Positions 1 through 5,064 of a stretch of DNA of 61,742 nucleotides are shown one piece after another (position 1 is the first letter of the stretch; each line of letters starts with the position of its first letter). This stretch comes from Aplysia californica (lineage: Eukaryota), in contig NW_004798067.1 of the NCBI RefSeq assembly GCF_000002075.1, forward strand, positions 173,110-234,851. The letters run 5' to 3'. Under the pieces are notes generated by a model. It made no database searches, had not been told where the DNA came from, and saw nothing but the letters and a program-made list of their open reading frames with translations. A program made the position numbers and the translations under genes.

Positions 1-698
1 GTTACGTGTAGGACACGACTGTTAAAACCCCACTGAAAGTGGTTCAAGCTCGCTGGCCTCTCGTGGTAATTTTTAGTTGGTGGCCGAGCCCCGGTCTGAC
101 CTCCCGCTCCTGCACGAAGGTAATAAATCAGTGTCAGTCGGTGTCGGTCGGCCACTCCCGTGCTTAACAACCGTGACGATAGCGATGCCCGCCGCCGTGC
201 CTGCGTATTGGGTTCCCGCAATTTTTGTATCACTTTCCCTTGTTATTTCTCCCCATCTAATGAACCTAGATGCCTCATTTTAAAGATCGTCTTAATACTA
301 ACAAGACGGTCCCACTTTCGCTCCGGAAACCTCACTGGTGTTATAGCATTTACGCACTTCGCAGTACAAGTGTTTTGTTAACCTAAAGTTGCCTTTTAAA
401 GTATATTTCATTTTGGAGTTTATCTTCTCTAAAGCCAAACTCAGATTTTCACGAAATCTCTCTGCTTCCCTTGGGACAGTGATATGTGAATGGACTTCGT
501 ATTTGAATTGTGTGAGCAAGTGTTATTTGTGGGAAGTGAATGTGTGATTATATACGATTTTTTTTTTTTAAAGGGTACCCCTTTCCTTGTGCGTGATTAA
601 CTCGGACGTATTCTTTCATTTCTCTTCTTTAAAATATCGTGTTATTTTTCCAACATTTCTCTTATCGATTTGTTGGAATATTTAATCCCTGTTAAGAA

Positions 699-2028
699 AT
701 GGAGAAACATACAGAGGATTCGCATGTTCAAAAGCTGCACGAACTTTGCAGAACTTGTGGTGGCAGAACACTGTCAGTCAAGCAGAAGGCAGAGAAAAGG
801 CGACCCCTGCAGAGTTCTAAATTTGCGTCGGACATTCTCTTGGCCTTTGGTGTTAGCATTACAACGGACTCACAGACAGTACATTCAAACACCATCTGCA
901 AATCTTGCGTGGACAAGATAAGACATATAAAGAAACATTGCTATCAGGGCACTTTAACACGGGCAAGGGAACTCGCCGAAAGAAGTAGCCATATTTGGTG
1001 CCAGTATGACCCAACGTTGCCAACTGATAGCTGCCCCACATGCCTGTGGCATTATGAGACTTCTTTGGGCAACCAGATCAAAAAGGATAGCCCCGCACAG
1101 ATAGCTTCAATCTCCAAAGAATGCACACCAGACACAACAATATCATCAGATTCCATTTGTACAGACACAACGGCATCATCACAAGCTGACACAGATGTGA
1201 GTGCACAGTCACGCACACTCACGCTAGATACAACACACAGTGACACGGCAACACCAGGAGACAACACAGTAGGACTCACTGACACAGTGAACGAATCAAT
1301 AGAGGCTGACACAGATGTGAGTGCACACACACTCACTCCAGATATGATACACAGTGACACGGCAACACCAGGAGACAACACAATAGGACTCACTGACACA
1401 GTGAACGAATCATTAGAGGCTGATACAGATGTGAGTGCATACACACTCAATCCAGATACGATACACAGTGACACGACAACACCAGGAGATAACACAGTAG
1501 GACTCACTGACACAGTGAACGAATCGATAGAGGCTGACAGAGGAGATGGTGACACTAACACGATGGAGGCACCTTTGATGGGACCCCCACCCCGCCCTAT
1601 TGCTTGTTCTACACCAGCCAAACCCAAACCAAATGTAGCAGACATGAATACATCACCTGCTTTCAAAACTGACAGATACTTTCATGAATCTTTACAAAAA
1701 TCACTTTCACAGCCGCTAGATAAAGCTGAAGAAAAACTACTCACAAGTTTTGTGAGACGAAAATTGCATAACTCAAAAACAAACACGTTTGAATGCAAAA
1801 CAGGAGGGCAGTCAGTACTTGTAGCACGACTAAAGAAACTAAGGAAACAATTAGCACAGGAAAAAACAAGCACAAAACGAAAGACAGCCAAATTAGTTTC
1901 TGTTGTAAGGGAAATCACTGAAGGCACATCCAATGACAGCATCATCGCAGAACATGCAAACGAACTGAAGAGAGTCAAGGCACCATAGAGACGCAAAGTT
2001 TGTGAAGAAGCAGGGTTCAGTTGCACAC
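699..2028 (+). pseudogene. Transposase N-terminal part: RAG1-like/Chapa zinc-binding domain, T/D/S-rich repeat and KTGGQ basic region
   Basis: ORF 699-1988 has H-x7-CRxCG (HVQKLHELCRTCGG), D-x4-H-x4-C-x2-C (DSQTVHSNTICKSC) and W-x2-(Y for H)...C-x2-C (WCQY..CPTC). This is the pattern of the RAG1 N-terminal region (HQANLRHLCRICG..DVDSIHPTEFCHNC..WHPHTPSCDIC). TAG at 1986-1988 looks premature, since the frame continues RRKVCEEAGFSCT up to a (CT)n tract. Confidence 0.8.
1185..1540 (+). repeat. Coding tandem repeat inside transposase ORF (units of 120, 114 and 114 bp; ~38 aa)
   Basis: GCTGA(C/T)ACAGA recurs at 1185, 1305, 1419 and 1533; peptide unit ADTDVSAHTLTPDxIHSDTATPGDNTVGLTDTVNESIE. Confidence 0.95.
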
Positions 2029-2041
2029 CTCTCTCTCTCTG

Positions 2042-2095
<54 letters not shown>
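2029..2095. repeat. (CT)n microsatellite at the junction of the two transposase halves
   Basis: Direct inspection. Confidence 0.95.
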
Positions 2096-2098
<3 letters not shown>

Positions 2099-2926
2099 AT
2101 CACTACGCGTGGGGAGAAACTAAAAGGGGAGATTAGACATTTAGAACATTGCTTAGTACTTTCTGATTCTGAGGAGGAGAGAAGTAACTTTCAGAACCAA
2201 CTGATGGAGAAAGAAGACAGGTTGTCTGAGTTAGAGCATGAACCCCTTAGCCCTAGGACTAGCCCTATCTGTTCTCATTTAGACGCCATACTAAACTCAC
2301 ACAACATCACACCGCAGGCATACGACAGCCGCTCTTTCATTAGCGATCACTGCCACAAATACATCATGAGTCGCGTTTATAAGGACCTCACGGCATTTAT
2401 TGTAAAAGAAACAGTAAAAAAACACCCACTATCAAAATATAATTGACACCTCTTACACTCTCAGAGAAGAATTCAATCAATTAAACAACACATTTAGGGA
2501 CCTTCACATCCACATCTCACACGGTCAACCAGTGTCAAAAGACAGACTACCACTACCACACATTGACACATGCATCAAAACTTACATGTCATTCCACAGG
2601 AGACACTTTAATGAAAAGGTACTTCCCAAACACCACATTCTCGAAAACCACTGCATCCTGTGAATACAAACTTATGGGTTTGGTTTGGCTTTACATGGGG
2701 AACAGGATGTGGTGAACTCATCCATGCTTCTGTGGCAAAGCTAGAGAGAAGAGGAGCTGGGATACGCAATATTTAACAGCAGCTGAAAGTTGTCGTGCAA
2801 TCTCAGCACCTCTTGTCAAATTCAGAACTTTTATCTAACGCGCCTCCGACATAGAAAAAAGGTGATAGTGCAATCAACTCTTCACTACTCCAAAACTGTG
2901 GACTTCCCAGAAAAACAATTAAGTGA
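2096..2926 (+). pseudogene. Transposase C-terminal catalytic remnant (frameshifts and stops)
   Basis: Reads PICSHLDAILNSHNITPQAYDSRSFISDHCHKYI, frameshifts at the A-run near 2416-2422, then ...KVLPKHHILENHCIL*IQTYGFGLALHGEQ/GELIHASVAKLERR.... PKxHxLExH...GEQGxExxH is the C-terminal catalytic Glu motif region of Chapaev/Transib/RAG1-related transposases. TGA at 2661-2663, a frameshift near 2706-2712 and further stops follow. Confidence 0.8.
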
Positions 2927-3336
2927 GTTTTGATATTTGACCATTTCTGATGTATTTTAGGTGAATTTGAAGTAATGTTTAAGGTTTGATTAATTGAAAT
3001 TTGATTTTAAAATATACCCCCCCCCCCCCCAAGGGCAATGCTGAAATATGAGCATTTTTTGTAACGCTATATATATTTATCGTTATTTCATACAATTTTG
3101 CATCTTTCTCAGTGGGTGCAGAAGTTCCCTCTTGTTCCAAACGGGCAAAATAAAAAGACGATAAAGTCACCGATCGGCGTATTTTGCAAGTTTAATTATC
3201 CTAAAAATGAAATAAACAATGCTGTCAGCGGGGAATTCCCCTTGCCAGGAGTTCATGACCCTGTGACCGGGGTCAGATTACAAAATGCGGGGCGCTGGCT
3301 GCCTGCGAACTAAAGTACCACTTCCTAACAGCCGTG

Positions 3337-3745
3337 ACAATTCTATTACCGTGACAATTTTCCTCAGGTGGAGGGGATGAAATTATTGTTACATGTACGA
3401 AATGATTGTTACATGTAGGAAATTATTGTTACATGTACGATTATTACCCTAACGATTTTCTTCAGGTGGAGGAGATGAAATGATTGTTACATGTACGAAA
3501 TGATTGGTACATGTACGAAATGATTGTTACATGTACGAAATGATTGTTACATGTACTATTATTACTGTGACAATTTCCCCAGATGGAGGAGATGAATGGA
3601 TATTTATATATATATACGACTATTGTCGTTATAATTTCCTCCACGTGGAGGAGATGAAATAACTGTTACATGTACGAGATGGTTGTTACATGTACGAAAT
3701 GATTGTGATTATTACCGTGACAATTTCTCCCAGGTGGAGGAGATG
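3337..3745 (+). repeat. Intronic tandem array: 20-bp AATGATTGTTACATGTACGA units plus copies of the downstream splice acceptor and exon start
   Basis: Copies of pyrimidine tract + CAG|GTGGAGGAGATGAA with AG at 3366, 3464 and 3581, an AC-mutated copy near 3643, and the true acceptor AG at 3732-3733. Confidence 0.9.
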
Positions 3746-5064
3746 AAGATCCGACTGAAGGACCTGGACCAGGAGAATAGGCTGTACAAGAAGATGCAGT
3801 TCCGACAGGAGAAGGCTCTCAAGACATTTGAGGAGAAGGAGAACGACCTACCCAGCATCCTGGACAAGCACAACAACGAAGTCAGGTCAGTGTCTGGTCA
3901 AGTGTGTCAGTCTCGTCCAGGTCAGTTTGTCAGTGTGTCAGTTTTGTCAGTGTGTCAGTTTGGTCAGTGTGTCAGTTTGGTCAGTTTGTCAGTGTGGTCC
4001 AGTGTTTCAATTTTGTCAGTGTGTCAGTGTGGTCCAGTGTCAGTTGTTTCATCTGTGGTGTCCTCTGGTCAGTCTTGTTAGTATGATCAGTGTGGTCAGT
4101 GTGGTCAGTGTAATATATAAGTATGGTCTGGTGTGAGCTATTTCTTTAGTGTCCTCTTGTCAGTCTGGTCAGTGTGGTCCAGTGTCAGCTGTCTCGTGTC
4201 CTCTGGTCAGTGTGGTCAGTGTAATAAGTATGGTGGTCTGGTTTGAGCTATTTCTTTAGGGTCCTCTTGTCAGTCTGGTCAGTGTGGTCCAGTGTCAGCT
4301 GTGTCGTGTCCTCTGGTCAGTGTGGTCAGTGTAATATATAAGTATGGTCTGGTGTGAGCTATTTCTTTAGGGTCCTTTTGTCAGTCTGGTCAGTGTGGTC
4401 CAGTGTCAATTGCCTTCATGGTGTTCTGGTGTCAATCTGGCCAGGAGATCTTGCTCGCTTTTCAGGAACAGGACGGGAGGGGGGGGGGGGGAGTCCCATT
4501 ATTTTCCTTTGAAGAACAATTATTATACTAAGCATTAAATTTGTTTTCTATGTGTTCATCTATTATCTTTTTGTTTTCAAATGGAACTCTGTAAATGTTC
4601 AGATATTTTCACAAAGTCCCAGTGGTATCTGTCTTTTCCGGGGCATTTTGTCAGAAAAGTTTGTCATCTGTGATATTTCCTAACCCCCCCCCCTCTTTGT
4701 TAGTTTTTGCTGGATGGAATGGAGAAGCGAAATCAATAATCGTAGAGACTCTTGATTTTGAGATGTGAGGGCGCTAGTCTCAAGTCCACATTGGCCCAAA
4801 GACAATTTTTATTTGGGCCTGTGGTTTGTTTTCAGATCTTTGAAAGAACAGAACAGACGGCTTCGGGAGAAGTATGAGAAATCAGATCGCTACCTTCGAG
4901 ACGCCGAGGATGAGTTGGAAAAAGTGAAGAAGAGAATGAAGAAGTACAAAGAAATAGTGGAGGAGAAAGACTTAAAAGAGAGAGACGAGCTGAGCCGTAA
5001 GCTGACCCGAGCGGAGATCGACATGGAGGAGAAGGATGTCAAAATTAAGGTGAGGACAGAGAGG

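What the first reader, a model, noticed from the sequence alone, without database searches (positions are those of the whole stretch)
14..57. Asymmetric bipartite termini offset by about one helical turn (12/23-like geometry)
Seen: the left end is CACGACTGTTA-12 nt-AAGTGGT-3 nt-AGCTCGCTGGC. The right end (rc of 3301-3336) is CACGGCTGTTA-2 nt-AAGTGGT-5 nt-AGTTCGCAGGC. The internal AAGTGGT block starts at offset 24 vs 14, a 10-bp difference, and the third block at 34 vs 26. Established: RSSs begin with CAC and differ by 11 bp of spacer (12/23 rule), and RAG-family transposons have bipartite asymmetric TIRs. Inference: a RAG1-N-bearing element outside the RAG/Transib lineage may also use one-turn end asymmetry, which would be a parallel or ancestral form of asymmetric synapsis. 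A single copy cannot exclude a copy-specific indel.
Basis: partly seen in the sequence, partly recalled or inferred. Interest (0 to 1): 0.7.

Follow-up and report, generated by a model that had tools for sequence, protein, structure and literature searches.

The report
Chapaev transposon ends, one turn apart
This is a broken copy of a known jumping gene (Chapaev); in its family and most sister families a shared DNA box lies about one helix turn further in at the left end than at the right, which likely reflects the same long/short end design that antibody-gene assembly uses.

Summary
Window 14-3336 is a decayed Chapaev (CMC/CMCT) DNA transposon. Its third block lies in a 26-bp insertion private to this copy.

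The 10-bp offset is real. In the family, 21 of 30 left ends carry a TTAG box at position 34 and 28 of 30 right ends at 24. In 11 of 12 Chapaev families of this genome (transposases 29-62% identical) the offset is 9-11 bp while the spacers diverge. All 89 inward-facing end pairs join one long and one short end. Two elements from metagenome contigs show the same shift of 10, one with a different box.

A predicted intact sister transposase folds like RAG1 (Z 29.2), and a segment lies where RAG1's nonamer-binding domain does. That segment alone matches only weakly. It likely reads the box; a strict long/short pairing rule is untested.

One-turn asymmetry is known for RAG, RAGL-A and Transib. I found no report for Chapaev, but could not read the two original descriptions. 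The scan noted this twice before, on another piece of this genome and in another genome.

The parts
14..3336 (+). Decayed, non-autonomous Chapaev DNA transposon copy (3,323 bp)
   Evidence: Ends match a family with 4-bp TSDs in 13 of 15 paired copies; 85-91% identical to near-complete copy L062
14..24 (+). Left terminal block (CAC start, 11 bp)
36..43 (+). First half of the left internal block; in the family it runs on to the TTAG box at end position 34
44..69 (+).
73..78 (+). Left TTAGTT box, displaced to end position 60 by the insertion
699..1988 (+). Open N-terminal part of the transposase: Chapa zinc finger (about 699-1070), low-complexity linker with a 234-bp expansion, and the start of the NBD-like segment (from about 1797)
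   Evidence: zf-AD E 0.00044, below cut-off; dN/dS 0.74 vs L062
2032..2111 (+). (TC)n-rich 80 bp standing where about 966 bp of L062, coding both catalytic aspartates, are missing
2111..2857 (+). Broken C-terminal transposase remnant with the H(4)H motif and the region of the catalytic glutamate; frameshifted
3308..3323 (-). Right internal block, TTAG box at end position 24
3326..3336 (-). Right terminal block (CAC start, 11 bp)

Best explanation
The stretch is the left end of a dead Chapaev transposon whose lineage keeps a CAC-starting terminal block and an internal TTAG box 9-11 bp further in at the left end than at the right, and the transposase likely reads that box with a segment related to the RAG1 nonamer-binding domain (NBD). 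Shown: the geometry, its fixation within and across families, 4-bp TSDs, and the decay of this copy. Predicted: the RAG1-like fold with an NBD-like segment on a linker ahead of the catalytic core. Inferred: two such segments pair up and bind one box each. A one-turn difference keeps both boxes on the same helix face, and the paired segments would tilt to hold one long and one short end, as the RAG1 NBD dimer does. Selection on that fit would keep the spacer length while its letters drift. The design is likely inherited from the common ancestor of Chapaev, Transib and RAG.
For: Family: box at 34 in 21 of 30 left-end loci and at 24 in 28 of 30 right-end loci. Twelve families: offset 10 in 7, 11 in 2, 9 in 2, 17 in 1. 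Among 8 families of the 34/24 class, mean pairwise identity is 77% at positions 1-7, 34-38% in the spacers, 76-77% in the box and 25-28% beyond. 89 of 89 inward pairs are long plus short. 0 of 182 heptamer-like sites in the rest of the window have the box at either position. Metagenome elements L324 and L336 both give shift 10 at p=0.0005, L336 with another box and 21-32% identity. Two other organisms keep the right-end spacer length with changed letters (loose ends, compared). The model (pLDDT 95.3) matches RAG1 at Z 29.2, rmsd 3.7, 454 aligned; NBD-containing chains align from model residue 23-25 to RAG1 391 (4wwx_B Z 26.7, rmsd 5.0, 515 aligned). The isolated segment ranks the RAG1 NBD 3rd of 48,161 chains, residues 21-81 on 393-455. 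An Arg-Lys pair at that start is 90% and 83% conserved.
Against: No binding or activity was tested. The isolated segment's match is weak: Z 3.6, rmsd 3.8, 57 aligned, tied with unrelated helical proteins; Foldseek E 2.9. A second profile hits only the RAG1 zinc finger, so the sequence signal for the NBD is not independent. There is no GRPR/K motif as such. The box is T-rich on the strand where the RSS nonamer is A-rich. No RAG2-like gene was seen in the elements, and PMC8355894 (passages) states that RAG1 alone does not prefer 12/23 over 12/12. The families share ancestry, so they are not independent cases. Internally deleted copies keep both parental ends anyway, so 89 of 89 does not prove a rule. 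F10 has offset 17 (one copy). Only 3 of 25 metagenome loci gave both ends, none with a TSD, and one (L321) is not significant (p=0.12).
Confidence: 0.62

Rival explanations
1. Phasing without a pairing rule: the box is bound and must sit on the right helix face, but long/long or short/short pairs work as well; the left/right difference is an inherited accident kept because other offsets break phasing.
For: Offsets cluster at 9-11, as phasing alone predicts. No RAG2 was seen, and RAG1 alone is said not to prefer asymmetric pairs (PMC8355894, passages). Two left ends that lost exactly 10 bp occur (C3:342615 and C3:345818).
Against: No symmetric pair among 89 and no symmetric family among 12. The two shortened left ends lie on one strand and are not an amplified family. 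ProtoRAG is reported to prefer asymmetric TIR pairs (PMC8289069, passages).
Confidence: 0.2
2. The box is read by another part or assembly, such as the N-terminal Chapa zinc finger or extra protomers of a higher oligomer as in piggyBac, so the likeness to 12/23 is convergent.
For: Asymmetric ends are common among cut-and-paste transposons; piggyBac needs its unequal 35/63-bp pair in cells (PMC7351741, passages). The NBD match alone is inconclusive. The box does not resemble the nonamer.
Against: The box positions (24 and 34) fall close to those of the RSS nonamers (20-28 and 31-39, from 12 and 23 spacers). The whole model aligns with RAG1 from the start of its NBD.
Confidence: 0.13
3. The offset is neutral: one ancient 10-bp indel carried along by descent, with no function.
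For: All families are related, and the offset varies by one base in 4 of 12 and by 7 in one.
Against: Spacer letters have decayed to 34-38% identity while length and box are kept over transposases as little as 29% identical. L336 keeps the shift with a different box.
Confidence: 0.05

Closest known systems
Chapaev DNA transposons (CMC/CMCT; PMC4079192, PMC4411706, PMC12730594, bioRxiv 10.64898/2026.01.24.700457; passages of each)
   Same: CAC...GTG ends, 4-bp TSD, one DDE transposase with C(2)C, LH and H(4)H motifs, N-terminal Chapa zinc finger; one sister family also has a RING finger.
   Different: The passages read describe no internal box and no one-turn end asymmetry.
N-RAG-TP of a sea slug (Panchin and Moroz 2008; not held, seen only as cited in PMC8355894, PMC13337447 and PMC2996935)
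   Same: A molluscan mobile element coding a RAG1-N-like protein; this element probably belongs to the same group.
   Different: Could not be compared. From recall, that paper likens the TIRs to RSSs, so part of this finding may be in print. Near-complete copies here carry a full DDE core, not only the N-terminal part.
RAG1/2 with 12/23 RSSs, and PflRAGL-A (bioRxiv 10.1101/2023.08.20.553239, passages)
   Same: CAC-starting heptamer-like block, variable spacer, internal conserved box, 10-11 bp asymmetry; RAG1-like predicted fold.
   Different: 4-bp not 5-bp TSD, no RAG2-like gene seen, no GRPR/K motif, T-rich box rather than A-rich nonamer, 14-16% structural identity.
Transib (PMC1131882, PMC9435367; passages), including AanRAGL's 4/13 spacers
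   Same: Bipartite TIRs, asymmetric in subgroup I and in several insect families; single transposase; Z 25.4 to HzTransib.
   Different: Transib has 5-bp TSDs, an A-rich nonamer and no Chapa domain.
piggyBac (PMC7351741, passages)
   Same: Unequal ends with an internal repeat; the unequal pair is needed in cells.
   Different: Different superfamily and binding domain, and the two ends differ by 28 bp rather than one turn.

Membership tests
Chapaev | 5'-CAC...GTG-3' termini | tested here: met
   Window 14-16 and 3334-3336; CAC in 12 of 12 tabulated elements at both ends
Chapaev | 4-bp target-site duplication (3-bp TWA in Chapaev3) | tested here: met
   13 of 15 paired family copies have an exact 4-bp TSD; the window copy itself has none
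Chapaev | DDE transposase with C(2)C, LH and H(4)H motifs | tested here: met
   Present in near-complete copy L062 and conserved in alignment A1; the window copy has lost both aspartates
Chapaev | [quoted passage not shown] | tested here: met
   Profile hits RAG1 NZD 21wb_A at E 3.9e-6; L194 hits PF12560 at 2.5e-9 plus RING; the window's own protein alone did not hit RAG1
Chapaev | Phylogenetic placement with named Repbase Chapaev transposases | not testable with these tools
   No Repbase sequences are available
Transib / RAGL transposons | 5-bp TSD | tested here: not met
   TSDs are 4 bp
RAGL transposons | RAG2-like gene within the element | tested here: inconclusive
   L178 (4.1 kb) has one ORF of 250 aa or more, the 937-aa transposase; no RAG2 profile search was run
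RSS-like 12/23 ends | Bipartite end with about one turn of spacer difference | tested here: met
   Offset 9-11 in 11 of 12 families and 89 of 89 pairs
RSS-like 12/23 ends | A-rich nonamer consensus | tested here: not met
   The box is (Y)TTAGT, T-rich on the inward-reading strand
RSS-like 12/23 ends | Nonamer-binding domain with a GRPR/K motif | tested here: inconclusive
   Segment aligns by position and weakly by fold; the motif is replaced by GQP and PRK
RSS-like 12/23 ends | Functional requirement for one long and one short end | not testable with these tools
   Needs a transposition assay

The most novel reading that the evidence does not exclude
Chapaev transposases enforce a true long/short pairing rule with an NBD-like dimer and without RAG2, so the 12/23 geometry of V(D)J recombination goes back to the common ancestor of Chapaev, Transib and RAG and can be studied in a single-protein system with an intact natural enzyme.
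Probability: 0.35. Interest if true: 0.75.

Novelty: new variant of a known kind. Interest (0 to 1): 0.52.

Why it matters
Where the 12/23 asymmetry came from, and whether it needs RAG2, is debated (PMC8355894 and bioRxiv 10.1101/2023.08.20.553239, passages). A fixed one-turn offset in a sister lineage with a RAG1-like fold and no apparent RAG2 would date the design earlier than the RAG/Transib split. A young family with an intact 937-aa transposase and known ends (L178) makes the question directly testable. The window's own copy is an ordinary fossil.

Tried and rejected
- The third block as a conserved element: rejected.
- Domestication of the window's open 430-aa frame: dN/dS 0.74 overall, 0.43 in the zinc finger, 1.79 in the NBD-like part, from one pairwise comparison; treated as near neutral.
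- A set of five short-class matches (L355-L359) shares one flank and has no partner end, so it lies inside another repeat and was left out.
- The homodimer prediction of the NBD-like segment gave no verdict (score 0.00, alignment not used).
- The protein atlas gave no usable hit for that segment.
- Single-sequence searches of solved structures found nothing.
- Viral contigs held no relative.
- 19 of 25 metagenome loci gave no usable end and 3 gave one end only.
- 8 of 40 transposase loci of this genome gave no end and 6 only one.
- The family tree was not used for ancestry claims: one row was empty, one covered 186 residues, and it has no root.
- The Chapaev3 ends in the supplement of PMC4079192 (file 2, part 1 of 3 read) are too short to test an offset.
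- Panchin and Moroz 2008 and one review on RAG origins were not held; the Repbase Reports descriptions were not looked up.

Full report
What is there. Searches of the window's genome with the left and right 290 bp gave 46 and 43 matches; the best 30 of each were read. Of 19 regions fetched, 15 held both ends and 13 of these had an exact 4-bp target-site duplication. A near-complete copy (L062, 3,909 bp) has one reading frame of about 940 codons with two stops. The window copy is 85-91% identical to it, lacks about 966 bp that code both catalytic aspartates, and is frameshifted further on. It has no duplication of its own, lies in a tandem repeat and starts 13 bp after a 3.7-kb stretch of N. 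CAC ends, 4-bp duplications, the DDE motifs and the zinc finger make it a Chapaev transposon by the hallmarks in PMC4079192 and PMC4411706 (passages). The named homologues are mostly from gastropods.

On this copy alone the best internal shift between the ends ties at 8 and 10 and is not beyond chance (p=0.14). The third block lies in a 26-bp insertion that occurs once in the genome and is present in a contig of another sample. Without it, the family's internal block is AAGYGGTACTTTAGTT. With a free gap of 0-30, all 31 exact matches have a gap of 12 or 2. The TTAG core starts at position 34 in 21 of 30 left-end loci (others 31, 33, 35, 38, the window's 60, and 4 not called) and at 24 in 28 of 30 right-end loci (2 not called).

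Sister families. Protein searches led to 40 further loci. A finder using only terminal match and duplication, blind to the box, resolved the ends in 19 of them, along with some spurious pairs that I set aside by eye. A box-guided pass and further fetches brought this to 26 with both ends, 6 with one and 8 with none. A RING-bearing family was resolved from copy boundaries and duplications. Box positions, left/right, are 34/24 in seven families, 36/25 in two, 33/24 and 34/25 in one each, and 41/24 in one single copy whose left end resembles a sister family's plus about 7 bp. The 34/25 family also rests on one paired copy. Catalytic regions are 29-62% identical, lowered somewhat by decay. Terminal heptamer and box are about 77% identical between families and the spacers 34-38%; I chose these windows after seeing the data. 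From 365 listed of 1,025 pattern matches, 89 inward-facing pairs within 6.5 kb were found, all long plus short: 61 with offset 10, 22 with 11, 6 with 9. Deletion derivatives keep their parent's ends, so this fits a pairing rule but does not prove one. None of 182 heptamer-like sites in the rest of the window has the box at those positions.

Other organisms. Of 25 metagenome loci, three gave both ends, picked by terminal match without duplications. L324 is 34/24; L336 has a different internal box shifted by 10 (both p=0.0005); L321 is 34/25 and not significant. Three single ends have the box at 35, 34 and 24. Two runs of other organisms hold the window's family, and one loose end in each keeps the right-end spacer length with changed letters.

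The protein. An intact sister transposase (L178, 937 aa) was folded from residue 280 with 87 homologues (pLDDT 95.3). Its best matches are RAG1 (Foldseek E 1.2e-15; Z 29.2), then HzTransib (Z 25.4), far above the P element (Z 11.4). With chains that include the nonamer-binding domain the alignment starts at RAG1 391. Folded alone, that segment gave no significant Foldseek match (best TM 0.46, to RAG1, E 2.9). In an unguided search it ranked the RAG1 NBD 3rd of 48,161 at Z 3.6, tied with unrelated proteins. A profile aligned through the NBD at E 1.5e-5, but a second profile kept only the zinc-finger hit. The GRPR/K motif is absent; conserved GQP and PRK motifs stand there. The NBD-like assignment is plausible, not shown.

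Mechanism. In RAG the NBD dimer binds both nonamers and pivots to fit the 12/23 pair (bioRxiv 10.1101/2023.08.20.553239, passages). The Chapaev boxes sit at nearly the same distances; taking the nine bases that end at the box, a frame of my choosing, gives spacers of 13 and 23. I infer that an NBD-like pair reads one box on each end and that the one-turn difference keeps them in phase (0.62). Whether symmetric pairs are excluded is open (0.35 for a strict rule).

What is known. One-turn asymmetry is described for RSSs, PflRAGL-A (10 bp), AanRAGL (4/13) and many Transibs (PMC1131882, PMC9435367, bioRxiv 10.1101/2023.08.20.553239; passages). PMC8355894 (passages) calls Transib the only other known case of 12/23 asymmetry. 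Six literature searches and the passages read from 15 papers gave no report for Chapaev. I saw nothing of Panchin and Moroz 2008 or the Repbase Reports descriptions; from recall the former likens its TIRs to RSSs, so priority is uncertain. Supplements of the bioRxiv preprints are closed and those of PMC4411706 and PMC9435367 were not read; they may show Chapaev ends. Two earlier notes of this scan reach the same reading; they are unchecked and are not counted as support.

Verdict. The copy is an ordinary fossil. The lineage-wide one-turn end asymmetry is well supported, apparently little described and directly testable. Interest 0.52.

Noticed in passing
window 3728-3886 and about 4834-5049 (+): Two exon-like pieces match Pfam Lebercilin PF15619 (E 2.3e-14 and 5.5e-13); the transposon lies just upstream of them or in an intron, inside a tandem repeat.
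   Followed up: no
window 699-1988: The N-terminal frame stays open for 430 codons, with a 234-bp in-frame repeat expansion, while the C-terminal part is broken; dN/dS 0.74 suggests no domestication.
   Followed up: partly
L061 (G000:C88:1122854-1127187): An element of a sister Chapaev family (C88:1123430-1125714) is nested inside a copy of the window's family.
   Followed up: partly
L178 2268-6372: Young Chapaev family with an intact 937-aa transposase and a perfect 4-bp TSD; a second copy (L180) is also open for 941 codons.
   Followed up: yes
L178 and L179 left ends; G000:C3:342615 and C3:345818: The long spacer of two families looks like a tandem duplication of about 10 bp, and two left ends have lost one unit; this hints at how a long end can arise or collapse.
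   Followed up: no
L329 and L344, right of the transposase: Metagenome Chapaev relatives carry several tandem CAC-starting units at the right end instead of one clear terminus.
   Followed up: no
several families, e.g. L067, L190, L347: Non-autonomous derivatives of different families cluster at about 1.6-2.4 kb and mostly keep the C-terminal coding part.
   Followed up: no
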